From the NCBI RefSeq assembly GCF_044324875.1, contig NZ_CP172185.1: a DNA stretch of 64,000 bases, one strand, 5' to 3'. The translations under genes and the position numbers were made by a program. Shown piece after piece: positions 2,625 through 61,856 of the stretch (within the stretch, counting starts at the first letter, position 1; every line of letters begins with the position of its first letter). The notes under the pieces are model-generated. The model did no database searches and was not told where the DNA came from. It saw nothing but the letters and a program-made list of their open reading frames with translations. This DNA is from Escherichia coli. Lineage in GTDB: Bacteria; Pseudomonadota; Gammaproteobacteria; Enterobacterales; Enterobacteriaceae.

Positions 2625-4133
2625 ATGAATAAATCGCTGGTAGCGGTAGGCGTCATTGTTGCGCTAGGCGTAGTCTGGACAGGCGGCGCATGGTATACAG
2701 GCAAGAAGATTGAAACCCATCTCGAAGACATGGTCGCGCAGGCGAACGCGCAACTCAAACTGACCGCTCCTGAATCCAACCTGGAAGTGAGTTATCAAAA
2801 CTATCATCGCGGCGTATTCAGCAGTCAGCTGCAACTGTTGGTGAAACCCATTGCCGGGAAAGAAAATCCGTGGATTAAAAGCGGTCAGAGCGTCATCTTC
2901 AACGAATCGGTTGATCATGGTCCCTTCCCCCTTGCCCAGCTTAAAAAACTGAACCTGATCCCGTCGATGGCATCAATTCAAACCACGCTGGTTAATAACG
3001 AAGTTAGCAAGCCACTGTTTGATATGGCAAAAGGTGAAACGCCTTTTGAGATTAACTCCCGCATTGGTTACAGCGGAGATTCCAGTTCCGATATTTCGCT
3101 CAAGCCACTGAATTACGAGCAAAAGGATGAAAAAGTCGCCTTTAGCGGCGGCGAGTTCCAGTTAAATGCAGACAGAGACGGCAAAGCTATCTCCCTTTCC
3201 GGGGAGGCGCAAAGTGGTCGGATAGACGCGGTTAACGAATATAACCAGAAAGTACAGTTGACCTTTAATAATCTGAAAACCGACGGTTCCAGCACGCTGG
3301 CAAGTTTTGGTGAGCGCGTAGGAAATCAAAAACTGTCACTGGAAAAAATGACCATTTCAGTGGAAGGCAAAGAACTGGCACTGCTGGAAGGCATGGAGAT
3401 CAGCGGTAAATCGGATCTGGTCAATGACGGTAAAACGATCAATAGCCAACTGGATTACTCGCTAAGCAGCCTGAAGGTACAGAATCAGGATCTGGGCAGC
3501 GGCAAGCTGACTTTAAAAGTCGGCCAGATTGATGGTGAAGCCTGGCATCAGTTTAGCCAGCAATATAACGCGCAAACTCAGGCGCTGCTGGCACAGCCAG
3601 AAATTGCCAACAATCCCGAACTTTATCAGGAGAAAGTGACGGAAGCCTTCTTTAGCGCCCTGCCGCTGATGTTGAAAGGCGATCCGGTGATTACTATCGC
3701 GCCGCTAAGCTGGAAAAACAGTCAGGGTGAAAGTGCGCTGAATCTGTCGCTGTTCCTGAAAGATCCGGCAACGACTAAAGAAGCGCCGCAAACGCTGGCG
3801 CAGGAAGTAGATCGTTCGGTTAAATCTCTGGATGCGAAACTGACCATTCCGGTGGATATGGCAACTGAGTTTATGACTCAAGTAGCGAAGCTGGAAGGTT
3901 ATCAGGAAGATCAAGCAAAAAAACTGGCGAAACAGCAAGTTGAAGGTGCGTCAGCAATGGGGCAGATGTTCCGTCTGACCACCTTGCAGGACAATACCAT
4001 CACCACCAGCCTGCAATATGCTAACGGTCAGATCACGTTAAACGGGCAGAAAATGCCACTGGAAGATTTCGTTGGTATGTTTGCAATGCCGGCATTAAAC
4101 GTTCCGGTCGTACCCGCTCTTCCGCAGCAGTAA
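2625..4133 (+). CDS. ydgA: DUF945 family protein YdgA
   Basis: 502-aa ORF with an N-terminal membrane anchor (MNKSLVAVGVIVALGVVWTGG). Position between manA and uidC matches K-12 synteny. Confidence 0.85.
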   Translation: MNKSLVAVGVIVALGVVWTGGAWYTGKKIETHLEDMVAQANAQLKLTAPESNLEVSYQNYHRGVFSSQLQLLVKPIAGKENPWIKSGQSVIFNESVDHGPFPLAQLKKLNLIPSMASIQTTLVNNEVSKPLFDMAKGETPFEINSRIGYSGDSSSDISLKPLNYEQKDEKVAFSGGEFQLNADRDGKAISLSGEAQSGRIDAVNEYNQKVQLTFNNLKTDGSSTLASFGERVGNQKLSLEKMTISVEGKELALLEGMEISGKSDLVNDGKTINSQLDYSLSSLKVQNQDLGSGKLTLKVGQIDGEAWHQFSQQYNAQTQALLAQPEIANNPELYQEKVTEAFFSALPLMLKGDPVITIAPLSWKNSQGESALNLSLFLKDPATTKEAPQTLAQEVDRSVKSLDAKLTIPVDMATEFMTQVAKLEGYQEDQAKKLAKQQVEGASAMGQMFRLTTLQDNTITTSLQYANGQITLNGQKMPLEDFVGMFAMPALNVPVVPALPQQ

Positions 4134-48852: not shown

Positions 48853-49125
48853 TCAGTGCTTCCGGCTGACGGTGATGTGCAGGCCGCCTTCTGCAGTGGT
48901 TTCCATCCGGTACGGCACCTCATGCTCTGCCGTGTGGGTGAGTGTGTTCATCAGTACCTGCAGGGCAGCCGCCTTTCCGTTGGTTGCCACAATGGCCTGT
49001 GTGGTCATGCTGATTAGCGCCGTCAGGACGTGCTTCACATCGGTGAGGTCGCGGCATTCACACTCGTTGACATAGTGTTCAACAAGGGTTCGGGTGCGCT
49101 GTCGTGCTTCCTGTGGGGTAATCAT
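48853..49125 (-). CDS. hypothetical early protein
   Basis: 90-aa ORF whose start overlaps the upstream stop (ATGA). No motif was recognised. Confidence 0.5.
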   Translation of the reverse strand: MITPQEARQRTRTLVEHYVNECECRDLTDVKHVLTALISMTTQAIVATNGKAAALQVLMNTLTHTAEHEVPYRMETTAEGGLHITVSRKH

Positions 49126-49316
49126 TGCGAGTCCTCCCTGTCAGGGCGGGAGAATTCCATGACGGGCACGTCTGCCGAAAAATGCTGGCTGCAGTACGGG
49201 CAGACCAGGGTGACGCGTACCGCAGGGATGTGGTATTTACCGGACATCACGGCGATGGCGCTGTGAAAACGCAGGGCTGTTATATCCCTCTCGCACTGAA
49301 TACATTTAAATATCAT
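49122..49316 (-). CDS. zinc-ribbon protein
   Basis: 64 aa with two CxxC pairs (CIQC ... CPYC), preceded by GAGGAG. Confidence 0.5.
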   Translation of the reverse strand: MIFKCIQCERDITALRFHSAIAVMSGKYHIPAVRVTLVCPYCSQHFSADVPVMEFSRPDREDSQ

Positions 49317-51420: not shown

Positions 51421-53190
51421 TCAGTTGCCGTTAACAATGCTGATAACGCTGCTGCGGGCCGGCGTGGTCAGCGTGGCCATGACTTCATCCAGTGCGGCTT
51501 CCGGTACGCCGTCCGGGTACTGTGCTGTTAACTGGCGGTAATGTTCCGGCGTCCAGGTCAGGCCGTCGGCGCTGAACTTATCGCGCAGGGCTTTCGCGGC
51601 CTCCACATGAGTCATGGGACGCTGTTCAGTGCGCGGTCCGCGTACGTCAGAGGCCTGACCACGCTTCGGTATACAGGCCGGAAGTGTGGCGTCATCAATA
51701 TGTTTATACGGGTCAAGCCGCCCGCCGAACGGCAGCGCCTTCGCCTTGCGTGCGGCAGCTGCATCTGCGGCGTTGTCTGTACCGGTGACCAGCGCTTCGG
51801 TTTCTTTTGCCGCCATCTGCGCCGGGGTTTCCGGCAGGGCTTTGTAACTTTCGCCAAATACCGCCGCGCCTTCAGCAAAGCCAAACTCGTTCTTTCTGAC
51901 CTCTTCGACCAGGAAGAACGTCTCGTGGCCGTCCTCACCGGTCAGAACCACCTGTGCCACATCGCTGCGCCACGGGTTACGGGTAATCATCAGTTTTTCA
52001 CCGACCAGTACGCCCGGTACCGTTGATACGTCAAATTCAGTGCCCCGGAACGAGACACGAAGTTTTGGCGTGACTTTGCGGAGTTCTGGTGCCGCCACAG
52101 CCAGTTCACGACATACCTCAACGGAAGGCGCTTTTTTCAGCTGCTCAGCAGTAATCTTCAGCCAGATATCCGTGCGGGTTTTACCGTGGCGGCTGTGAAC
52201 AGCCGTGGCGTTAAAGTGGCTGCGCCATTTCGCGGCCAGCGCGTTGAGTTCTTCCAGACTGTGAACCGGCCGGAACTTCAGACCCGGCTCCAGCTTGCGT
52301 TCGATAATGTCACGCGCCTTTTCCACCTGTCCGGTGGCGCGGGCGTTATGCGGCTTGTGCGCTATCAGGTCGATGCCCAGTGAGCGGCACATGTTTTTCG
52401 TCATACCCGCGGTGTTTGCCGAGCCGGGGTCGAGATAGAGTATTTTTGGCACGCCGTGCAGCACGTCTGCGCCGCCACGCTCCTGCATGGCGTTGATAAG
52501 CACAGAACACAGGTTCTCACCGGATTCCGCACCCGTCACATACTCAACGTAAATCCAGCCGCTGGCATGGTCGGTAATCTCGTAACTCCACACGCGGTCA
52601 CTGGCGATACGGGCAAGGTTAGCGGGCTTGTTTTTGTAGAATTTCGCGCTGTCCATCACCTGCAGCCCTTTATGTCCATTGCTCAGGTAGTAAAGCGTGC
52701 AGAGTGAGGCGTCAATCTGCCAGACATGATTGGGGTGCAGACTGGCCACTTCGGTATGCGGTGCAGGGGCATCCAGTTGTTCCGGGTGCAGGCCATAGTT
52801 ACGCAGGGCACGACTGATGGCATCTTCGGACAACGGGAAAAACTCACCGGTGGTTTCATCTGTTCTGCCTGCGGAGATAAAGCCGTTAGCCCGCAGGGTT
52901 TCCACTGCATCCGCGATGGAATAGAGACGCTTACCGTTCTTGCGGGTGGCCTCACGTAGTGTGGCAGATATCAGCGCGGCTTCGTCGCGGGTCAGGGTGC
53001 TGCGTCCGGCATCGGCGCGTTTTTTGCGTTTATCAGTCACAGAGACCTCCTTCAGCCTGCGCAGCAGAGTGGCGCGGGACATGCCAAGTTCAGCACAGGC
53101 AGCGTCGTATATTGCACCGCGTTTACCATGCCCCGCATTACGTGCCGCGCGGGCTGTTTCAACAAGTTTTTCAGTCAGTGCCGGGGTCAT
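51421..53190 (-). CDS. DDE transposase (MuA analogue, rve/integrase core)
   Basis: 589 aa with an N-terminal HTH (MSRATLLRRLKEV). The catalytic triad candidates are D in VWQIDAS, D in LYLDPGS and E 36 residues later (GQVEKA), which is the D-x35-E spacing. Confidence 0.9.
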   Translation of the reverse strand: MTPALTEKLVETARAARNAGHGKRGAIYDAACAELGMSRATLLRRLKEVSVTDKRKKRADAGRSTLTRDEAALISATLREATRKNGKRLYSIADAVETLRANGFISAGRTDETTGEFFPLSEDAISRALRNYGLHPEQLDAPAPHTEVASLHPNHVWQIDASLCTLYYLSNGHKGLQVMDSAKFYKNKPANLARIASDRVWSYEITDHASGWIYVEYVTGAESGENLCSVLINAMQERGGADVLHGVPKILYLDPGSANTAGMTKNMCRSLGIDLIAHKPHNARATGQVEKARDIIERKLEPGLKFRPVHSLEELNALAAKWRSHFNATAVHSRHGKTRTDIWLKITAEQLKKAPSVEVCRELAVAAPELRKVTPKLRVSFRGTEFDVSTVPGVLVGEKLMITRNPWRSDVAQVVLTGEDGHETFFLVEEVRKNEFGFAEGAAVFGESYKALPETPAQMAAKETEALVTGTDNAADAAAARKAKALPFGGRLDPYKHIDDATLPACIPKRGQASDVRGPRTEQRPMTHVEAAKALRDKFSADGLTWTPEHYRQLTAQYPDGVPEAALDEVMATLTTPARSSVISIVNGN

Positions 53191-54450: not shown

Positions 54451-54765
54451 TTACAAACGACTACCTGAAATGACACGTTGGTTGATTTCGTTAATGCGAT
54501 CCTGTGCACGTGCCATCTCGTTACTGTGGGCCATGGCGATCTGCAGCAACTGGATGCCCGGTGCGAAACGCCCGTTTTCCAGTTTCAGGGCCAGTCCTTC
54601 TTCAATGAGGGTGTTGAGTGCCCGGTTGATGTTTGCCGGTGACTCGTGCAGTGCTGCCGCCAGTTCACCATTGGAAATACCGTTCAGGGCATGACCGCGC
54701 AGCGCTTTGAGTACCCGGAGGATGCGACTGCCGGAGCTTGAAACATTCGTCTTACTCATCTGCAT
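54451..54765 (-). CDS. winged-helix DNA-binding protein (IclR-N-like)
   Basis: 104 aa. The segment RILRVLKALRGHALNGISNGELAAALHESPANINRALNTLIEEGL resembles an IclR-type wHTH. Confidence 0.55.
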   Translation of the reverse strand: MQMSKTNVSSSGSRILRVLKALRGHALNGISNGELAAALHESPANINRALNTLIEEGLALKLENGRFAPGIQLLQIAMAHSNEMARAQDRINEINQRVISGSRL

Positions 54766-54811
54766 ACCTCTTTTGCGATATGTGATAACCTTTTACAAAG
54801 AATCAAAATAT

Positions 54812-55000
54812 TCAGGCTGCCTGAGCTGTTGATTTCAGCCCCAGTTTCACGGCGATTTCATGGGATTTACCGTAACGTGCTTTGCTCTGCCCATTGAGAA
54901 CGCGGTATACCTCATTGCGGTTGTAGCCGTTTTCTTCTGCCCAGCGGGTGAAAGTGATCCCGCGCTGGCGGAAGAGAGCTTTGACTTGTTCTGCAGTCAT
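54812..55000 (-). CDS. small HTH protein, first gene of the early operon (Ner/Cro functional analogue, BcepMu gp16-like)
   Basis: 62 aa, preceded by AAGGAG and divergent from the repressor gene. The HTH-like segment is FTRWAEENGYNRNEVYRVLNG. Confidence 0.6.
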   Translation of the reverse strand: MTAEQVKALFRQRGITFTRWAEENGYNRNEVYRVLNGQSKARYGKSHEIAVKLGLKSTAQAA

Positions 55001-55100
55001 CGTTGTCTCCTTTGTTGATGCAATGATGTTTGCCTTATGTGTGATAGATTATGGTGCAGATTATCTCACCAGTCAACTTAAAGAGTGCAGAAAAACTCAC
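55001..55100. promoter_or_regulatory. divergent immunity/early promoter-operator region
   Basis: 100-bp spacer between the Ner-like gene and the repressor gene. It contains GTGAT-AGATTAT-GGTGC-AGATTAT-CTCAC, with the 7-bp direct repeats at 55046 and 55058 and outer GTGA/TCAC inverted arms. Confidence 0.55.
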
Positions 55101-55439
55101 ATGATCGGGTTACGTATTAAAGAAGAAAGAGAGCGTCTATCTCTTACACAGCAAGGGTTGGCTGATGCTATCGGTGTGGCAAAGAGAACTTTTATTGATT
55201 GGGAAAAAGATCGCACTTCTCCTACTGCAGTGCAGTTATCTGCACTATCAGAAATCGGTGTAGATGTTTTGTATGTAGTTACTGGGGTGCGGAGTCAGCC
55301 TGTTGTTGCACCTTATATGTCACAAGAAAAGAAAGAGTTAATGGATGCATTCGACGAGATGAGCCCCGAACAACGGAGGGCAATTCTTGAGGTCGGCAAA
55401 GTCTTCATTCAACCCAAACCAAGCAAACTCGCAGGCTGA
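55101..55439 (+). CDS. XRE-family prophage repressor (no peptidase domain)
   Basis: ORF 54948..55439 trimmed to the ATG at 55101, giving 112 aa. The HTH_3 motif is LRIKEERERLSLTQQGLADAIGVAKRTFIDWEKDRTSP. Confidence 0.8.
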   Translation: MIGLRIKEERERLSLTQQGLADAIGVAKRTFIDWEKDRTSPTAVQLSALSEIGVDVLYVVTGVRSQPVVAPYMSQEKKELMDAFDEMSPEQRRAILEVGKVFIQPKPSKLAG

Positions 55440-55524
55440 TTCTGACCTGGACAGAAAGGACAGGTGGTTGATCTGGATGCTTTCAGAAAACGCCGTCAGT
55501 AGCATGGCAGAAATCGGCGGGCTT

Positions 55525-55549
55525 ACCGGAAAGCACTGTACTTTCCGGT
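55525..55549. terminator. hairpin between the convergent repressor and dam genes
   Basis: Stem ACCGGAAAG / CTTTCCGGT with a 7-nt loop. The flanking T runs are weak. Confidence 0.4.
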
Positions 55550-55557
55550 TATGGCTT

Positions 55558-56322
55558 TTAGAAATTGCAGATCACCAGCTCACGGCGTGGAGTTGATTTG
55601 CCTGCCAGACTGTAGTTGATGTTCACTGTCTGTATGTTCAGTCCAGTGAACACCTCGCGCATCTGCGGGATGTCGTTCACCGAAATTATCATCTTTCCTC
55701 TGATGCACCGGGCCAGCTCTGCCAGCCGCGAGTAGTTCCCTTCAGGAAAATCCACACCATAGCCTTCTGTACCCAGATACGGCGGGTCACAGTAGAACAG
55801 CGTGTGCGGACGGTCATAGCGCTCAATGCACTGTTGCCAGTCCATGTGTTCTATCACCGTTCTGGAAAGCCGCAGGTGTGCCGCTGACAGTTCTTCCTCG
55901 ATACGCAGCAGGTTGAAGCGTGGCGGGGATGTGGTGGAGGTGCCGAAGCTGTGCTCTGCCACCTTGCCGCCAAACGCCTGCTTCTGGAGGTAGTAGAACC
56001 GTGCTGCACGCTGGATATCCGTCAGTGTTTCTGTCGGGGTGATCTGCAGCCATTTGTAGATCTGCCGGCTGACCAGCGCCCATTTGAACTGGCGGACAAA
56101 TTCTTCCAGATGATGTTTTACCACCCGATACAGATTTACCAGTTCACCATTGATATCGTTAATGACTTCGAGCTTACCAGGTGTCTTAAGAAAATAGAGC
56201 GCTGCTGCGCCGCAGAACGGCTCCACGTAACATTCATGCGCCGGAAACAGCGGCAGGATGTGTTTTGCCAGGCGACGTTTGCCACCAATCCATGGAACGA
56301 TGGGTAATGTCTGCATTTTCAT
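55558..56322 (-). CDS. dam: Dam-type N6-adenine DNA methyltransferase (D12 class), orphan
   Basis: 254 aa with the AdoMet motif EPFCGAAALYF and the catalytic DPPY motif (FYCDPPYLG). No adjacent nuclease gene was recognised. Confidence 0.9.
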   Translation of the reverse strand: MKMQTLPIVPWIGGKRRLAKHILPLFPAHECYVEPFCGAAALYFLKTPGKLEVINDINGELVNLYRVVKHHLEEFVRQFKWALVSRQIYKWLQITPTETLTDIQRAARFYYLQKQAFGGKVAEHSFGTSTTSPPRFNLLRIEEELSAAHLRLSRTVIEHMDWQQCIERYDRPHTLFYCDPPYLGTEGYGVDFPEGNYSRLAELARCIRGKMIISVNDIPQMREVFTGLNIQTVNINYSLAGKSTPRRELVICNF

Positions 56323-56514
56323 AATCTGTAAGCCTTTTACAATTATTAAAAATATGGCAGGCTAGTCTGGTCTCGCGAGACTGACTGAACCCCGGTCGGC
56401 TCACAGCGCATTCCTGTGGGACGATGGCCAGCCCGGTGGGTCCGAAGCACCGGGCTGGTCGTTCTTTCATGATGCGGCAGGGATGAAGTGATTTCTGTTA
56501 ATGTGGTTTAGGGA
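56323..56514 (-). other. structured GC-rich spacer upstream of dam (possible regulatory RNA/leader or protein-binding dyads)
   Basis: A perfect 12-bp palindrome GTCTCGCGAGAC lies at 56370-56381, with AGTC/GACT extensions. A perfect 11-bp stem CCAGCCCGGTG / CACCGGGCTGG lies at 56428-56458; its loop contains CUUCGG on the minus strand. There is no convincing ORF. Confidence 0.3.
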
Positions 56515-56730
56515 TTATCCGGGGCGATTTTCTGACCTTATCTGGTCCAGGGCATAAGTGATCCCTTCTGCAAAAACAGAAGTATCAAACTGCTTTTGTA
56601 TTTCCTGAAAATGAACAGTGGCACGACAGACACTCAGTTCTCCGCGATGTAACCGGATAATATCTTCCAGAACATTGTTCACTGCTTCGGCACGGCGCTG
56701 ATGTTCTGTTAACGTTAATCGGGGATTCAT
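56515..56730 (-). CDS. hypothetical 71-aa protein
   Basis: ORF preceded by AAGGAG (plus strand CTCCTT at 56738-56743). No motif was recognised. Confidence 0.5.
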   Translation of the reverse strand: MNPRLTLTEHQRRAEAVNNVLEDIIRLHRGELSVCRATVHFQEIQKQFDTSVFAEGITYALDQIRSENRPG

Positions 56731-57107
56731 GATGCACTCCTTAAATGATGATTTTTATGTACTCACCGGCAAAATATTCTGCCGATTACTGAACACGCAT
56801 CCGGCTCCTCAGGTTTTGATTTATTCTGGTTTTTTCGATATCCCGGACCAGGTTGATCACGACAGAAAAAGTGCCGGTATTTTATTGATACGCTGATATG
56901 GCTTCGGGATAACAGCTATATTCGTTACTCTCAGTTGCTGGCTGTGGGAGCGGCTGATGTCGTCCTCACGGAAAAAACGCTCTGTCTGCTCAATGCCATG
57001 CCGACCTTTCTGCAGCCCCGGCCCGTACCATTTAAAGAGTCACTTCTGGATGCAGTAAAAACCGGTGAAAATGCAGTCATCGCTGAATGCGTATCCCGGA
57101 TTATGCG

Positions 57108-57656
57108 TTACGTGTTTAATGAACGTAAGTGAGGTTTATCCGCTGTCTGCATAATCCCGATAGCCAGTGCGAGGGGAAGCAATTCCGGGGAAACTCTTTC
57201 AAACAGCGATTCCCATTCTCCTCTCGCCATCACTCTGTCCAGCCCGCCCTCCAGCTGCATTTCAGCAATCTTCCTGATTTCCCGGAACAACGCCGCTTTG
57301 ATCTCTTCATGCTCAGCTTTATTTTCCGGTGTCAGAATGTATTCGTCGAAGAACCGGGGAGGCTGGTTAACGGGGGGCATGTTCACCGGGATGTGTTCCT
57401 GTATCCCGTACTCCGGGGCTGAAAAACATTTTGTTGTCTGACCGGTGAGTTTGCGTAACACCTTCATGAGTTGCTCCTGAAGCAGCTCATTCGTCCGACA
57501 GATACGCTCGTCGTCCACAACTGCGGCATCGACAATGACGCTTTTTCCAAATTCCTTTTTCACCATCTCTTTTATACGCGTCAGAACGTAACTTTTACCG
57601 CTGCCTACAGGCCCGGACACTCTGACGGTGATGGTCGGCTTCGGTGTGACTGTCAT
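57108..57656 (-). CDS. hypothetical protein with an N-terminal Walker-A-like motif
   Basis: ORF trimmed to the ATG at 57656, preceded by AAGGAG, giving 182 aa. ITVRVSGPVGSGKSYV fits GxxxxGK[ST], and SVIVD follows only about 20 aa later, which is atypical for a complete P-loop fold. The C-terminal half is helical. Confidence 0.55.
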   Translation of the reverse strand: MTVTPKPTITVRVSGPVGSGKSYVLTRIKEMVKKEFGKSVIVDAAVVDDERICRTNELLQEQLMKVLRKLTGQTTKCFSAPEYGIQEHIPVNMPPVNQPPRFFDEYILTPENKAEHEEIKAALFREIRKIAEMQLEGGLDRVMARGEWESLFERVSPELLPLALAIGIMQTADKPHLRSLNT

Positions 57657-57787
57657 TCTGTATCTCCTTTGTGAGTGATCCAGCGTGTATTCTGCATACC
57701 CCGAACACGCCTCTCTCTTAACGCGCTTTAAAATCCTCCGCGCCACGCTTTTGCCATGCTGTCTCCACACAACAAGGAGACATTTTC

Positions 57788-58138
57788 ATGAAACCATTCA
57801 CTTCCCTTATCGTTGACGTACAAAAAACCCGCCTGCGTGGATGGCTTGTTGCGGCCGTGCTGCTGCTCCTCATCATCGCGCTGGTCTCACCCCAGCAGTT
57901 GCCGGTGGTGGTGTACAAGCTCTCTCTCATCTCCCTCGCCGCCGTGCTCGGCTACTGGCTGGACCGCTCACTCTTCCCGAAGGCCCGTCCGGGGCAGTAC
58001 CTGAAGCATGACGAGCGCCTCATGGCTGAGGGGCGCTGGCCCGTACAGACCGGCCTTCACCTGGTGTTTTCTGCTGCGTTAATCCGCCGTGCACTGATTG
58101 TTGCAGCTGTCTGTCTGGCTGTTGCGATGGGGCTTTAA
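57788..58138 (+). CDS. putative holin (3 TM)
   Basis: 116 aa, preceded by AAGGAGA. It has three hydrophobic segments and sits immediately upstream of the endolysin gene. Confidence 0.6.
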   Translation: MKPFTSLIVDVQKTRLRGWLVAAVLLLLIIALVSPQQLPVVVYKLSLISLAAVLGYWLDRSLFPKARPGQYLKHDERLMAEGRWPVQTGLHLVFSAALIRRALIVAAVCLAVAMGL

Positions 58139-58140
58139 TC

Positions 58141-58875
58141 ATGAACTGGCCACAGAGCACCTGGATTGTATGCATGTCCCTGAAACTGGCTTTCGAAGCC
58201 TTTCTGGTCTTCATCAGAACCGAACGCCTGTCAGTCCGTGTCGGGACCTTTCTGGTTCATATGGCATGGGTATTCTTTGTCGCAATGTTGCTCTGGTGTG
58301 GCGGCTTCTTCAGTCAGGCCCGCGCAGCGCAGCCTCCGCAGGCTGCGCTGCAGTATCGCGATGATGTGATCCGTAATGCCCGGCTTGAATGGGGGCTGTC
58401 TGCGCCGGTGGCCGATTTCGCCGCGCAACTGCATCAGGAAAGCGGCTGGCGGACTGATGCGGTCTCGCCGGTGGGCGCTCAGGGGCTGGCGCAGTTTATG
58501 CCCGCCACCGCTGACTGGATAAGCCAGTTGATGCCGGCGTTGAGCAGTCGTGAGCCGTTTAATCCGGCATGGGCCATCCGGGCGCTGGTCAGCTATGACC
58601 GCTGGCTGTGGCAGCGCATCAGCGCCGCCAGTGACTGCGAGCGTATGGCCATGACACTGTCGGGCTATAACGGTGGTCTGGGTTGGGTACAACGGGACAG
58701 GCGGCTCGCATCACAGAAAGGTCTGGACAGCACCCGCTGGTTCGGACATGTCGCCACGGTGAATGCCGGACGCAATGCTGCCAGCTGGCGGGAGAACCGC
58801 CATTATCCGCAGCGCATCCTGCACGAACTGGCCCCCCGTTATCTGACATGGGGGGGCGGCAGCTGTGTGGACTAA
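58141..58875 (+). CDS. SLT-domain lytic transglycosylase endolysin with an N-terminal hydrophobic anchor or signal
   Basis: The ORF carries the catalytic ES motif (QLHQESGW), GLAQFMPATA and YNGG. Its N-terminus contains MAWVFFVAMLLWCGGFFSQARA. The start codon is ambiguous (58141 or 58261). Confidence 0.8.
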   Translation: MNWPQSTWIVCMSLKLAFEAFLVFIRTERLSVRVGTFLVHMAWVFFVAMLLWCGGFFSQARAAQPPQAALQYRDDVIRNARLEWGLSAPVADFAAQLHQESGWRTDAVSPVGAQGLAQFMPATADWISQLMPALSSREPFNPAWAIRALVSYDRWLWQRISAASDCERMAMTLSGYNGGLGWVQRDRRLASQKGLDSTRWFGHVATVNAGRNAASWRENRHYPQRILHELAPRYLTWGGGSCVD

Positions 58876-59167
58876 CCTGCTAAAAAATCTGCCGTGGCGC
58901 AGTCTGCTGCTGGCAGTGCTCATAAATGCTTTTCTGATTGGACTTTATTACCTGGGCTACAAAAGTGCAAAATGGCATCTGAATCGATCGCAGTTTGGCA
59001 TTCGAATCGATCATGATTTGGCATCCATCTCCGATCACAGTTTGGCATCACAATCGATCACGATTTGGCATGCTTCCGATCATTGATTGGCATCCTGCCA
59101 GTCACTCCGGGAATTAACTCTTTTCACCACAGTCTCCATTGCCGTGTTTAAACCAGTGGAGACGTCA

Positions 59168-60733
59168 ATGTCCAGAAAGAGAAAATCCAGGAGCACTATG
59201 GAAACCTGTTTTAAGATCCTTCAGCTCAAGTTCGACAAGAAGCTGACTAACCGTTGTATCGGACTGACGTTACACATCAGCGCCTCAACCGTTTTTGAGG
59301 TTCTTGCCCGCTTCAAAGCCTCTTCTCTGTCATGGCCATTACCTGCTGATATATCCCATGACACGCTGGAGAAACTCATTTTTCCGCCCAAAGACACCTT
59401 TGCATCAGAGCTTGTAATGCCTGACATGTTGTACTTCGATACGGAAATGAGAAAACCAGGTGTGACGCGGCAACTGTTGTGGATGGAATACAAGGCACAG
59501 GCGGGTAACAAAGCGATGGGATACTCGCACTTCTGCCGTTGCTACCGGGAGTGGAAAAAAACGCGACGTCTCTCCATGCGCCAGGAGCATCGTGCCGGCG
59601 AAAAGCTTTTTATCGACTTCTGTGGTCCTACGGTTCCTGTTATTAATCCGGACACCGGTGAGATACGCCGCGTGGCAATCTTCGTGGCCGTAATGGGGGC
59701 GTCCAACTATACCTACGTTGAAGCGTGCGAAGGTCAGGACATGATGTCATGGTTAAATGCCCACAGCCGTTGCCTGACCTTCCTGGGCGGCGTACCGAAG
59801 CTGCTCATCCCCGATAACCTCAGAAGCGCAGTGAAAAAGGCCGATCGATATGAGCCTGTCATCAACGACAGTTATCAGGCACTGGCTGAGCACTATGGCA
59901 CGGTTATCATCCCGGCCCGACCACGCAAACCTAAAGATAAACCAAAAGCAGAAAACGGCGTCCTCATCGTTGAACGATGGCTTCTTGCCCGCATCCGTAA
60001 TGAAACCTTCCACACGCTCAGGGCGCTGAATGCGCGCCTTAGGGAGTTACTGACAGACATGAATAACCGGCCAATGAAGGGGTACGGCAATCAAACCCGT
60101 GCAGAACGCTTCCGCATACTGGATGCGCCAGCACTCTCTCCGCTGCCTCTGGCACCTTATGAATACACGGAATACAAAGCTGTGAAGGTTGGCCCTGACT
60201 ACCACGTTGAATATGCCCGTCACTGGTACTCCGTTCCACACGAACTGGTCGGTCAGCGTCTGTCACTGAAGGCGGGGCAGTCGGTGGTACAGCTCTGGCA
60301 CAAGGGGCAGTGTGTGGCGCAACATCCGCGCAGCACACATGAATATAAACACACAACCAATCCGCTTCACATGCCAGAGCGCCACCGGCAGCACGGGACA
60401 TGGACACCGGAACGCCTGATCGAGCAGGGAAAACGTACGGGCCCGTCCACAGGCCGGGTGGTTGAATCCATGCTGAAGGCAAAACCCCATCCGGAACTGG
60501 CTTATCGTGCAGTTCTGGGGCTGCTGGCACTTCAGAAAAAATACGGCCCGGAACGGCTGGAAAAGGCCTGTTACGTTGCCCTGCACTATAACGCCCCTGA
60601 CAGACGCTTTATCGACAATCTGCTGCGTCACCATCGGGAGAACCTGGAGCTTCCATTATCCCGCCAGGGCGAACAACATCCGGCATATGCTTCAGAGCAT
60701 GAAAACCTGCGTGGTCCGGGCTACTACCACTGA
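59168..60733 (+). CDS. istA: IS21-family transposase IstA
   Basis: ORF trimmed to the ATG at 59168, preceded by GGAG, giving 521 aa. It has an N-terminal HTH and a DDE/rve core (LFIDFCG ... LLIPDNLRSAV ... PKAENGV). Confidence 0.88.
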   Translation: MSRKRKSRSTMETCFKILQLKFDKKLTNRCIGLTLHISASTVFEVLARFKASSLSWPLPADISHDTLEKLIFPPKDTFASELVMPDMLYFDTEMRKPGVTRQLLWMEYKAQAGNKAMGYSHFCRCYREWKKTRRLSMRQEHRAGEKLFIDFCGPTVPVINPDTGEIRRVAIFVAVMGASNYTYVEACEGQDMMSWLNAHSRCLTFLGGVPKLLIPDNLRSAVKKADRYEPVINDSYQALAEHYGTVIIPARPRKPKDKPKAENGVLIVERWLLARIRNETFHTLRALNARLRELLTDMNNRPMKGYGNQTRAERFRILDAPALSPLPLAPYEYTEYKAVKVGPDYHVEYARHWYSVPHELVGQRLSLKAGQSVVQLWHKGQCVAQHPRSTHEYKHTTNPLHMPERHRQHGTWTPERLIEQGKRTGPSTGRVVESMLKAKPHPELAYRAVLGLLALQKKYGPERLEKACYVALHYNAPDRRFIDNLLRHHRENLELPLSRQGEQHPAYASEHENLRGPGYYH

Positions 60734-60749
60734 CAGAAGGAACAACAGT

Positions 60750-61505
60750 ATGAGTGATAACCTGTTAAACAAACTGACCCAACTGAAACTCCCGGCGATG
60801 GCCGGGAGCCTGATACGGCAGCGGGAAACGCCTCAGACCTACGACGAACTGTCGTTCGAGGAAAGGCTGACGCTGCTGGTTGATGACGAGCTTCTGAGCA
60901 GGGAAAACAGCCGTGTGGCACGGTTGAGAAAAAATGCCGGCCTGAAATACCAGGCAACACCGGAAGGGCTGCGCTATCCGGCCTCAAGAGGTCTGCGGGC
61001 TGAACAGATGAGAGAACTGCTGAACGGCCACTACATAACCCACAGGAAAAACCTGCTGATAACCGGTCCGACAGGATGTGGCAAGAGCTGGATAGCCAAT
61101 GCGCTGGGCGAACAGGCATGTCGACAGAAACACAGCGTCCGGTACTGTAGAACCGGGCGATTACTGGAACAACTGGCTCAGGGACGTGTTGATGGCAGCT
61201 GGCTGAAATATCTGAAACAGTTGCAAAAAATACAGGTTCTAATCCTGGACGATCTGGGGCTGGAACAGTTAAGTAACGCCCAGTGTAATGACCTTCTGGA
61301 GCTCATAGAGGATCGTTACGGACAAAGCAGCACGATAGTGGTAAGCCAGTTCCCGGTAGATAAATGGCATGGTCTGATGGAGAACCCAACAACAGCAGAT
61401 GCCATCCTGGACAGACTGGTACATAACTCACACCGAGTGGTCCTTCAGGGAGAGTCACTGAGGAAAAATCCCCCGGTAGTGGAAAGCAGCGAAAAAACGC
61501 GTTAA
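60750..61505 (+). CDS. istB: IS21-family helper ATPase IstB
   Basis: ATG at 60750, 16 nt after the istA stop, giving 251 aa. Walker A is GPTGCGKSW and Walker B is VLILDDLG. Confidence 0.9.
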   Translation: MSDNLLNKLTQLKLPAMAGSLIRQRETPQTYDELSFEERLTLLVDDELLSRENSRVARLRKNAGLKYQATPEGLRYPASRGLRAEQMRELLNGHYITHRKNLLITGPTGCGKSWIANALGEQACRQKHSVRYCRTGRLLEQLAQGRVDGSWLKYLKQLQKIQVLILDDLGLEQLSNAQCNDLLELIEDRYGQSSTIVVSQFPVDKWHGLMENPTTADAILDRLVHNSHRVVLQGESLRKNPPVVESSEKTR

Positions 61506-61856
61506 AAAGCGGTAGAAAAAGTTAAGTTCCCGGTTGATCGAATGGATGCGAATCGCTGATCGGACTTCGATGCCAATCCGTGATCGAATAGAGCGGAATA
61601 CGCAAAAGCGGGCATGAAAACGCCACGCGCGACGGCGATAAGGCGATCAGTGAGTTGCAGTCAGCATTCGACACATACAAAACGGAGCAGGCAATGCTTG
61701 AGAACGCTGCATTGCGAGCATGGGCAAAACGGTATCAGGAGCAGGTGGCCGCTGGGCAGCAGGCTGAGGCCGGTTATCTTGAGCAGATTGCTCAACTGGA
61801 GAGTCAGAACAAACAACTACAGGGGCAAATTAACGATGTCACACAGCGCTGGATTG

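What the first reader, a model, noticed from the sequence alone, without database searches (positions are those of the whole stretch)
55558..57656. Three-gene accessory cassette between the immunity and lysis modules: Walker-A protein, 71-aa protein, orphan Dam methyltransferase
Three minus-strand genes sit between the repressor and the holin gene, transcribed against both neighbouring modules. The first (57656-57108) encodes a 182-aa protein with a precise GxxxxGKS motif (GPVGSGKS). A hhhhD follows only about 20 residues later, so it is not a canonical P-loop fold. The second (56730-56515) encodes a 71-aa protein of unknown function. The third (56322-55558) is a DPPY Dam-family methyltransferase, separated by a 190-nt structured spacer. 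No cognate nuclease is visible. This could be self-protection against GATC-specific restriction, epigenetic control of phage promoters as in the Mu mom paradigm, or an uncharacterised modification-linked defence or anti-defence module. A 377-bp stretch (56731-57107) inside the cassette has no convincing ORF.
Basis: inference. Interest (0 to 1): 0.6.

Follow-up and report, generated by a model that had tools for sequence, protein, structure and literature searches.

The report
Phage methylase with RNA gate, mosaic neighbours
The "three-gene cassette" is a mosaic cargo region, common in E. coli, of a BcepMu-like transposable prophage; it holds four separable genes, and its orphan adenine methylase carries a conserved, undescribed leader RNA that probably masks its ribosome-binding site, much as in phage Mu's com-mom control.

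Summary
The three minus-strand ORFs are real, but the interpretation needs correcting.

- **The "ORF-free" 377 bp.** It holds a fourth gene on the + strand (134 aa, phrog_2266). In this window a 1-bp deletion at 56863 breaks it.
- **Not one unit.** Relatives carry the methylase with other neighbours, or the P-loop module without the methylase. P2-like phages carry the 134-aa gene with a different small partner.
- **The "Walker-A protein".** It is a mosaic. A truncated P-loop-like N-module is fused to a C-domain that stands alone in Serratia. The window copy lacks about 65 aa of the N-module.
- **The methylase.** It is the ortholog of M.EcoMIV of E. coli ST131 prophage Phi2, which is transcribed at low level in lysogens and has no assigned site. 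The alignment does not conserve the EcoDam GATC-contact residues.
- **New here.** The "structured spacer" is a 145-nt leader that travels with this methylase family. Covariation supports a hairpin and a long-range helix over the Shine-Dalgarno region. Distant relatives have a Com zinc-ribbon gene between leader and methylase, as in Mu's com-mom. Rfam has no match.

No defence-system model matched apart from methyltransferase models hit by the methylase. The region occurs in about 9% of complete E. coli genomes.

The parts
55558..56322 (-). Orphan D12-class (Dam-family) N6-adenine DNA methyltransferase, 254 aa; ortholog of M.EcoMIV (EC958_1101) of ST131 prophage Phi2
   Evidence: Pfam PF02086 at E 1e-28. 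TIGR00571 scores 116.8 against a cut-off of 114.85. PDB hits are DpnM and EcoDam at E 1e-17 and 1e-14. The syntenic EC958 gene is shown. Transcription and motif data come from PMC4659465.
56320..56464 (-). Conserved structured leader of the methylase gene. Elements: hairpin P1 56428-56458; r1 56414-56420; r2 56398-56406; r3 56326-56334. r3 overlaps the Shine-Dalgarno region. Read on the + strand, P1 looks like a terminator.
   Evidence: Alignment and RNAalifold. Pair counts. Covariance model hit of 130 bits, the only significant hit in the window. The MFE contains the r2:r3 helix. No Rfam match.
56515..56730 (-). 71-aa protein of unknown function (phrog_4490). Its start codon overlaps that of the + strand gene in the palindrome CATG (56728-56731).
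   Evidence: phrog_4490 at E 5e-51. A Serratia homolog of 73 aa sits in the same position. Between E. coli and Serratia pN is 0.45 and pS 0.89.
56729..57132 (+). Frameshifted copy of a 134-aa gene (phrog_2266, WP_032289791.1), with a 1-bp deletion at 56863. When intact it overlaps the 71-aa gene head to head and the 182-aa gene tail to tail (25 nt).
   Evidence: Homologs occur in Serratia (53% identity) and P2-like phages (about 31%). In P2-like phages dN/dS is 0.07.
57108..57656 (-). 182-aa modular protein (phrog_3787): a truncated P-loop-like N-module (residues about 1-55) plus a conserved C-terminal helical domain. It is a deletion variant of the 242-247-aa form.
   Evidence: The N-module family is described. 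The C-domain matches the stand-alone Serratia 89-aa protein. No Pfam family passes its cut-off.
57657..57787 (.). Divergent intergenic region between the 182-aa gene and the holin. It presumably holds the leftward promoter and the late lysis promoter.
   Evidence: Read from the sequence. The consensus promoter scan found nothing there. A stretch of about 50 nt next to the holin is similar in Serratia; this was compared by eye only.
55525..55549 (+). Terminator-like hairpin between the convergent repressor and methylase genes

Best explanation
This is the variable cargo region of a BcepMu-like (Bcepmuvirus) transposable prophage of E. coli, of the same type as ST131 prophage Phi2. It lies between the repressor and the lysis genes and holds four separable units, not one system.

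(1) The methylase module.
- It is an orphan D12-class adenine methylase together with a conserved 145-nt leader.
- Shown: in the leader, a segment about 80 nt upstream (CUGUGAGCC) pairs with GGCUUACAG at -12 to -4 from the start codon, which masks the Shine-Dalgarno region. An alternative local hairpin (CACAG:CUGUG) could free it.
- Shown: more distant Mu-like phages have leader, com, then methylase.
- Inferred: the enzyme is kept off in the lysogen. It is made in a gated burst during lytic growth and methylates progeny DNA before packaging, which protects it from restriction in the next host. That is the role Mom plays in Mu.

(2) and (3) The 71-aa and 134-aa genes.
- Shown: they are divergent genes whose start codons overlap in CATG, so each gene's ribosome-binding site lies inside the other's first codons.
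- Shown: P2-like phages keep the same architecture around a homolog of the larger gene, inside the GpA-GpQ defence hotspot.
- Inferred: the pair is a mutually exclusive antisense switch of unknown output.
- Shown: it is inactivated here by a frameshift.

(4) The 182-aa protein.
- Shown: it is a polymorphic protein made of shuffled modules, and its P-loop remnant is too small to be an NTPase domain.
- Its role is unknown.
For: Prophage type and position:
- PhiKM and PGAP annotations.
- BcepMu itself has three unrelated + strand genes in this slot.

Separability:
- KP12 keeps the methylase but has a different neighbour.
- L087-L093 have the P-loop N-module with neither the methylase nor the pair.
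- L094, L096 and L097 have the N-module and the methylase without the pair.
- Serratia has the methylase, the pair and only the C-domain.
- 43 P2-like loci have only the pair architecture.
- The two small partners are not detectably homologous (hhalign probability 0.1%).
- Both P2-like genes are under purifying selection (dN/dS 0.07 and 0.12).

Leader:
- It is present in every methylase context examined.
- RNAalifold independently calls P1 and the SD helix.
- 90% of cells pair and 13 pairs show double changes. No shuffle in 500 reaches this, and slid controls give 24-50%.
- With 35 sequences, 7 of 8 SD-helix pairs show double changes.
- L127 forms the same helix from an unrelated sequence.
- The model finds the leader in 40 of the 48 methylase loci searched at E <= 0.001, including ones outside the seed.
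- Neither Rfam nor Mu's own Pmom region matches.

Com:
- Pfam PF10122 hits at E about 1e-14 in relatives, with their own SD-masking stems.

Silence in lysogens:
- In EC958 the ortholog is transcribed significantly below dam, and no motif could be assigned (PMC4659465).
Against: - There are no expression data for this prophage. The EC958 result is for an ortholog about 94% identical, under one condition.
- r1, r2 and r3 could be DNA repeats bound by a protein, because all three co-vary together.
- The 35-sequence alignment was fitted to the model, and the sequences are related.
- In single-sequence folds the 12 nt before the start are only modestly more paired than in controls (7.5 against 5.9 nt).
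- The window has no com gene, so what opens the gate is unknown.
- The recognition site and the anti-restriction role are inferred from general knowledge of phage orphan methylases.
- The 71-aa gene, the 134-aa gene and the C-domain gene co-occur with overlapping ends in both E. coli and Serratia, so those three may be functionally linked.
- Structure prediction failed for both unknown proteins (pLDDT 44 and 47).
Confidence: 0.55

Rival explanations
1. The three (or four) genes form one modification-linked defence or anti-defence system.
For: - They are adjacent and mostly co-oriented.
- They co-occur in about 490-530 of 5,426 complete E. coli genomes.
- The homologous pair in P2-like phages lies in the GpA-GpQ hotspot, where many defence systems sit (PMC13586616).
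Against: - The E. coli co-occurrence reflects one prophage lineage.
- Outside that lineage the parts assort independently.
- PADLOC hits only methyltransferase models, through the methylase itself. No other component matches above noise.
- There is no nuclease.
- The ortholog methylase is transcribed at low level in lysogens.
- The 134-aa gene is frameshifted in the window lineage, which is spread over at least 11 complete genomes, and it is deleted in L068 and L069.
Confidence: 0.08
2. The conserved stretch upstream of the methylase acts at the DNA level, not as an RNA gate. P1 would be a terminator for + strand read-through from the repressor side, and r1, r2 and r3 would be repeated binding sites for a phage regulator of the methylase promoter.
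For: - P1 is followed by a T-rich run on the + strand.
- r1 and r2 form a dyad, r3 repeats the same core, and all three change together in L122, L131 and L164.
- Mu's mom promoter is controlled by a dyad-binding activator (from my own knowledge).
Against: - The r2-r3 spacing varies from 74 to 97 nt, which does not suit a phased promoter.
- One-sided changes are almost all wobble-compatible transitions.
- G-U pairs are kept in most sequences.
- L127 pairs only if wobble pairs are allowed.
- An inner hairpin between r2 and r3 changes sequence but remains a hairpin.
- r3 always abuts the start codon.
Confidence: 0.2
3. The methylase is mainly an epigenetic regulator of phage or host genes, for example of lysogeny stability or transposition timing, rather than protection against restriction.
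For: - Dam methylation controls several transposases and the Mu mom promoter (reviewed in PMC4659465).
- The phage is transposable.
Against: - Transcription in lysogens is low.
- In Mu-like relatives the gene sits in the terminal, com-linked mom position, which points to late modification of progeny DNA.
- No methylation-site clusters were examined here.
Confidence: 0.15
4. The 71-aa and 134-aa pair is a toxin-antitoxin, exclusion or abortive-infection module expressed from the prophage.
For: - It sits in variable hotspots of two unrelated temperate phage groups.
- The larger gene has been lost independently twice, by frameshift and by deletion, while the small gene was kept. That fits a dispensable toxin.
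- The P2-like version ends in a hydrophobic tail.
Against: - The genes are divergent, not an operon.
- There is no TA, Pfam or PADLOC hit.
- In P2-like phages the pair keeps a fixed place next to the portal gene while the cargo beside it varies, so it looks like a fixture rather than cargo.
Confidence: 0.2

Closest known systems
Phage Mu com-mom operon (translational activation of a late DNA-modification gene)
   Same: - A DNA-modification gene whose ribosome-binding site is masked by an mRNA helix.
- Relatives of this methylase have a Com zinc-ribbon gene directly upstream (PF10122).
- Relatives often sit at the very end of Mu-sized contigs.
   Different: - The enzyme is a D12 methyltransferase, not Mom.
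- The window copy has no com.
- The gene lies between the immunity and lysis modules.
- The leader does not match Mu's Pmom/com region (6.9 bits).
M.EcoMIV (EC958_1101), orphan methylase of E. coli ST131 prophage Phi2 (Forde et al. 2015, PMC4659465)
   Same: Syntenic ortholog, about 94% nucleotide identity, with the same neighbours.
   Different: The EC958 prophage has the intact 134-aa gene and the 242-aa form of the modular protein. The paper did not describe the leader or the neighbouring genes.
E. coli Dam, T4 Dam and DpnM (GATC methylases of the D12 class)
   Same: The fold family and the DPPY catalytic motif.
   Different: - The similarity is distant (E 1e-14 to 1e-17).
- The positions aligned to EcoDam K9 and R124 are Pro and Ala. 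The role of those residues is from my own knowledge.
- The recognition site is unknown.
BcepMu gp18-gp20 region
   Same: The same slot between the repressor (gp17) and the holin (gp21).
   Different: Its genes are unrelated, all on the + strand, and include no methylase.
P2 GpA-GpQ accessory hotspot (Rousset 2022, PMC9122126; PMC13586616)
   Same: It holds a homolog of the 134-aa gene in the same head-to-head CATG overlap with a small gene.
   Different: - The small partner is not homologous.
- There is no methylase and no P-loop module.
- The pair has not been tested or named as a defence system in the papers read.

Membership tests
D12-class (alpha) N6-adenine DNA methyltransferase / Dam family | Match to the family profile above the curated cut-off | tested here: met
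   PF02086 scores 101.3 bits against a cut-off of 22. TIGR00571 scores 116.8 against 114.85, a marginal pass.
D12-class (alpha) N6-adenine DNA methyltransferase / Dam family | Catalytic DPPY motif | tested here: met
   CDPPYLG is in the translation and aligns to DPPY of EcoDam and DpnM.
D12-class (alpha) N6-adenine DNA methyltransferase / Dam family | AdoMet-binding FxGxG motif | tested here: inconclusive
   EPFCGAAAL aligns to EPFVGAGSV of EcoDam. The second Gly is Ala.
GATC-specific Dam | Conservation of the EcoDam residues that contact GATC (K9, R124; their role is from my own knowledge) | tested here: not met
   In the HMMER alignment K9 aligns to Pro and R124 to Ala. No site could be assigned to the ortholog by SMRT sequencing (PMC4659465).
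Orphan (solitary) methyltransferase | No cognate restriction endonuclease next to it | tested here: met
   The neighbouring genes have no nuclease or restriction-enzyme hit in Pfam or PADLOC.
P-loop NTPase | Walker A motif GxxxxGK[ST] | tested here: met
   GPVGSGKS at residues 14-21. Some relatives have GKN instead.
P-loop NTPase | A complete alpha/beta core with Walker B, and a match to an NTPase family | tested here: not met
   - The best Pfam hit, AAA_35, scores 19.5 bits against a cut-off of 27.
- PDB profile hits cover only strand 1, the P-loop and helix 1.
- The shared module is about 78 aa, and the window copy lacks its last strand.
- The AF2 model has pLDDT 44, and the fold search gave nothing at E <= 0.001.
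Mu com-mom type module | An mRNA structure masking the ribosome-binding site of the modification gene | tested here: met
   The r2:r3 helix is in the MFE, is called by RNAalifold and is supported by pair counts. The evidence is computational only.
Mu com-mom type module | A Com zinc-ribbon activator gene immediately upstream | tested here: not met
   The window has none. The only CxxC...CxxC ORF in the prophage part, 49122-49316, does not hit PF10122. Com is present in 13 of the 80 related methylase loci.
Mu com-mom type module | A Mom-family modification enzyme | tested here: not met
   The enzyme is a D12 methyltransferase.
Mu com-mom type module | Late, activator-dependent transcription | not testable with these tools
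   This needs expression data after induction.
Known anti-phage defence systems (PADLOC-DB 2.0) | A match of the non-methylase genes to any system component | tested here: not met
   There are no hits for the 71-aa or 134-aa proteins or their Serratia and P2-like relatives. The P-loop protein gives only noise-level hits.
Type II toxin-antitoxin pair (for the 71-aa and 134-aa genes) | Two small co-oriented genes in one operon, with a match to TA families | tested here: not met
   The genes are divergent with overlapping start codons. No family hit.
Any Rfam RNA family (for the leader) | A covariance-model match | tested here: not met
   No match at E <= 1 in 54500-58500.

The most novel reading that the evidence does not exclude
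The 145-nt leader is an undescribed class of cis-regulatory RNA that gates translation of a widespread family of phage orphan adenine methyltransferases. It would exist in two versions, one working with a Com zinc-ribbon protein and one (as here) without. Separately, the start-codon-overlapping divergent gene pair shared by BcepMu-like and P2-like phages would be an RNA-level toggle in which each mRNA is antisense to the other's ribosome-binding site.
Probability: 0.4. Interest if true: 0.6.

Novelty: new variant of a known kind. Interest (0 to 1): 0.42.

Why it matters
- **Annotation.** The region is carried by roughly one in eleven complete E. coli genomes, including the pandemic ST131 clone. 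Correct annotation therefore has wide reach: four genes, one of them often mis-called or missed, and a methylase of unknown specificity.
- **The silent methylase.** The leader offers a concrete, testable reason why such prophage methylases are silent in methylome surveys. It also extends the com-mom logic of gated, late DNA modification from Mom to Dam-family enzymes.
- **The gene pair.** The overlapping divergent pair is a compact regulatory architecture worth testing, because it sits in or beside defence hotspots of two temperate phage groups.
- **No new defence system.** None of this amounts to a new defence system.

Tried and rejected
- **Structure prediction.** The 247-aa form and the 134-aa protein gave pLDDT 44 and 47. 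Foldseek against the PDB gave no hit at E <= 0.001 and TM-scores below 0.3, so there is no fold assignment.
- **T7 gp5.5/5.7 lead.** The Midge annotators' HHpred note for the 143-aa homolog was not reproduced. hhalign probabilities were 0.1% and 1.6%.
- **'DUF2513' label.** UniRef gives this name to the Serratia homolog, but hmmscan against Pfam did not reproduce it.
- **Small-partner homology.** The BcepMu-like and P2-like small partners showed no homology (hhalign probability 0.1%).
- **PDB profile search.** The 134-aa family gave no hits at E <= 10.
- **Genome-wide scan for the P-loop N-module.** The first alignment tried was too divergent to search with.
- **A Com-like gene in the window.** Only a non-Com zinc-ribbon ORF was found.
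- **A leader peptide across the spacer.** The 78-aa ORF 56234-56470 has no conserved start in relatives and the leader carries indels, so I rejected it.
- **Promoter scan.** Three sites were found against 3.5 expected, which is uninformative.
- **Smith and Jeddeloh 2005.** This paper, on prophage methylases active only after induction, is not held in the library.
Full report
**Context.** The right part of the window, from about 45.4 kb, is a BcepMu-like transposable prophage of E. coli.
- The early genes run leftward: a Tn552-type rve transposase (51421-53190), an ExeA-like AAA protein, Gam, a DUF3102 protein, an IclR-type HTH protein and a Ner-like protein.
- They are followed by a rightward HTH repressor (55101-55439).
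- After the region in question come a rightward holin (57788-58138) and an SLT endolysin.
- The same arrangement is annotated in Escherichia phage PhiKM (genus Bcepmuvirus) and in E. coli chromosomes that are 100% identical over the region.
- In BcepMu itself the slot between the repressor gp17 and the holin gp21 holds three unrelated + strand genes. The slot is therefore a variable cargo site.

**Checking the observation.**
- The three minus-strand ORFs exist as described, with plausible ribosome-binding sites.
- They belong to phage protein families: phrog_3787 (182 aa), phrog_4490 (71 aa) and phrog_56/D12 methyltransferase (254 aa).
- The 377-bp "ORF-free" stretch is not empty. In near-identical prophages a 134-aa + strand gene (WP_032289791.1; phrog_2266, E 2.6e-44) is annotated there.
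- In the window a single base is missing at 56863, which splits that gene into two frames.
- At least 11 complete genomes from different sources are 100% identical across the region, so the frameshift is a lineage trait rather than a sequencing error.
- When intact, this gene overlaps the 71-aa gene head to head: the two start codons share the palindrome CATG at 56728-56731. It overlaps the 182-aa gene tail to tail by 25 nt.

**Do the genes travel together?**
- Within E. coli they do. 498 of 5,426 complete genomes carry the 71-aa/134-aa/P-loop segment and 526 carry the methylase, among them ST131 strain EC958. That is one prophage lineage.
- Outside it the parts assort independently:
  - The BcepMu-like element in the Klebsiella phage KP12 record keeps the methylase but has a different gene (DUF2441) before the holin.
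  - E. coli variants L087-L093 have the P-loop N-module alone, followed by membrane-protein cargo.
  - L096 and L097 have the N-module and the methylase but not the pair.
  - L095 has the N-module protein and only a relic of the methylase leader.
  - Serratia marcescens prophages have the methylase, a 73-aa gene, a 139-aa gene and an 89-aa protein. The last matches only the C-terminal 60 residues of the E. coli "P-loop" protein.
  - 43 P2-like contigs have only a homolog of the 134-aa gene (about 31% identity). It sits head to head in the same CATG overlap with a 63-64-aa gene, between the portal gene Q and the replication gene A.
- That interval is the main defence hotspot of P2 (PMC13586616).

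**The "Walker-A protein".**
- Its close family is tiny and confined to E. coli (23 hits).
- The common form is 242-247 aa. The window's 182-aa form lacks about 65 residues in two blocks.
- An exhaustive search showed that only the first 76-80 residues are shared, at 40-57% identity, with proteins of 155-364 aa. That segment is strand, GxxGxGK[S/N], helix, strand, then W.KPRSGTIFKLEE. The rest of those proteins is built from shuffled short modules.
- Some members have GKN in place of GKS.
- Stand-alone N-domain forms (141 and 158 aa) and many frameshifted forms exist.
- A profile of the module matches only the strand 1, P-loop and helix 1 element of unrelated NTPases, including designed minimal P-loop proteins.
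- No Pfam or NCBIfam family passes its cut-off.
- The window copy has lost the third strand of even this small module.
- Its function is unknown. Its one constant is position: it is the first leftward gene beside the holin promoter region.

**The methylase.**
- It is a D12-class enzyme with DPPY and no nuclease partner.
- Its ortholog in EC958 is M.EcoMIV, on prophage Phi2. Forde et al. found it transcribed far below dam in mid-log LB. They could assign no motif by SMRT sequencing and noted that no homolog above 65% identity has a known site (PMC4659465).
- Its similarity to EcoDam and DpnM is distant (E 1e-14 and 1e-17). The positions aligned to EcoDam K9 and R124 are Pro and Ala. I recall those residues as GATC contacts, but did not check that here.
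- Calling it a GATC "Dam duplicate" is therefore unwarranted.

**The spacer is a conserved leader.**
- About 170 nt upstream of the methylase start is conserved in every context, including those where the upstream gene differs.
- On an alignment of 23 leaders, RNAalifold called two elements:
  - a GC-rich hairpin, P1 (window 56428-56458);
  - a long-range helix between CUGUGAGCC (r2, 56398-56406) and GGCUUACAG (r3, 56326-56334). r3 lies at -12 to -4 from the AUG and overlaps the Shine-Dalgarno sequence.
- Pair counts on the 23-leader alignment:
  - 90.3% of cells form standard pairs;
  - 13 pairs have changes on both sides;
  - no shuffle in 500 reaches the observed values;
  - sliding the partners drops pairing to 24-50%.
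- One-sided changes in the SD helix are nearly all wobble-compatible.
- L122 and L131 (U-A to C-G) and L164 (U-A to C-G) show compensatory changes. L127 forms a 10-bp helix at the same place from an unrelated sequence.
- A covariance model built from 19 leaders finds a full-length match directly upstream of the methylase, or of a small ORF preceding it, in 40 of the 48 methylase loci searched (E <= 0.001). These include distant ones not in the seed. The window has one significant hit.
- On the 35-sequence model-fitted alignment, 7 of 8 SD-helix pairs show double changes. A fitted alignment leans towards the model's structure.
- A short alternative hairpin, r1:r2 (CACAG:CUGUG), co-varies too but with weaker statistics.
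- The window's minimum-energy fold contains r2:r3 enclosing an inner hairpin.
- Neither Rfam nor Mu's own mom promoter region matches.

**Link to com-mom.**
- In 13 of the 80 closest methylase loci a small ORF lies between the leader and the methylase.
- It is a Com zinc ribbon (PF10122, E about 1e-14), and several of these loci have a further stem masking the methylase SD.
- Many of the methylase genes are the last gene on Mu-sized contigs, which is where mom sits in Mu.
- This methylase family therefore fills the Mom niche: a late, translationally gated DNA-modification function.
- The window's version has the leader but no com. The only zinc-ribbon ORF in the visible prophage part (49122-49316, phrog_3401) is not Com by Pfam. 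What opens the gate here is open. Co-transcriptional formation of r1:r2 is one possibility.
- On the + strand P1 is followed by a T-rich run. It could also stop read-through from the repressor side that runs antisense across the methylase. That is inference.

**The divergent pair.**
- Both genes code for protein. In P2-like phages dN/dS is 0.07 for the large gene and 0.12 for the small one. Between E. coli and Serratia pN is below pS.
- The small partners of the two phage groups are not detectably related, yet the CATG overlap is kept in nearly all loci.
- Each gene's ribosome-binding site lies inside the other's first codons, and each promoter must lie inside the other gene. Mutual antisense interference is therefore a reasonable inference, not a demonstration.
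- The 134-aa gene has been inactivated at least twice: by the frameshift here and by a deletion that leaves 18 codons in L068 and L069.
- Its fold could not be determined.
- The stretch 56650-57260, which covers this gene and the C-domain, is 98-100% identical between prophages whose flanks are 69-96% identical. I have no explanation for this.

**Verdict.**
- The finding describes an ordinary and very common cargo region, mis-parsed in one respect. It is not a three-gene system.
- The methylase is already catalogued.
- What is worth a second look is narrower: the covariation-supported leader, its com-containing relatives, and the overlapping divergent pair.
- I rate the region a new variant of a known kind, a mom-like gated modification module built around a Dam-family enzyme.
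- I put moderate confidence in the RNA gate and low confidence in any assigned role for the other three genes.

Noticed in passing
window 58966-61602: An IS21-family element (istA 59087-60733, istB 60507-61505) is inserted with a 6-bp target duplication into the gene after the SLT endolysin. That gene is the Rz/spanin-like protein, annotated as 'MreC domain' in NR301. This prophage copy is therefore probably defective for lysis.
   Followed up: partly
window 56650-57260: The stretch covering the 134-aa gene and the C-domain of the 182-aa gene is 98-100% identical between prophage variants whose flanks are only 69-96% identical. The most variable part is 57260-57940, which covers the N-module, the intergenic region and the holin start.
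   Followed up: partly
window 49122-49316 (-): A 64-aa ORF with CxxC...CxxC (phrog_3401, unknown function) lies in the early operon. It is not Com by Pfam. It is noted only as a candidate RNA- or DNA-binding zinc ribbon.
   Followed up: partly
L095:5897-6057: A leader-like match (43 bits, E about 1e-10) lies after the modular-protein gene in a prophage with no methylase. It looks like a relic of a lost methylase module.
   Followed up: no
L068 and L069, about 4001-4059: These are E. coli prophage variants in which the 134-aa gene is deleted except for its first 18 codons, while the 71-aa gene and the modular protein are kept.
   Followed up: no
window 57700-57787 and L010:6690-6784: About 50 nt just upstream of the holin start is similar in E. 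coli and Serratia (CTTAA.GC.CTTTAAAA...CGCGCCAC...GCCATGCTG.CTCCA). It may be the late promoter or activator site. It was compared by eye only.
   Followed up: no
L126, L133, L136, L137, L140, L143, L148, L154 (about 160 nt upstream of the methylase): Com zinc-ribbon genes lie between the leader and the methylase. Several have a stem such as AGAGCCUCU:AGAGGUUUU that masks the methylase Shine-Dalgarno sequence, plus an intervening hairpin. This recalls the Com target in Mu.
   Followed up: partly
P0017, P0018, P0020-P0022 (E. coli relatives of the 182-aa protein): Many database copies of the modular protein carry frameshifted tails, which suggests frequent decay or slippage in this gene.
   Followed up: no
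L005-L007 and L027-L067: In P2-like phages the pair keeps a fixed distance from the portal gene while the cargo between it and gene A varies (Fic, DinI, nucleotidyltransferase-like). The pair flanks the hotspot rather than being variable cargo.
   Followed up: partly
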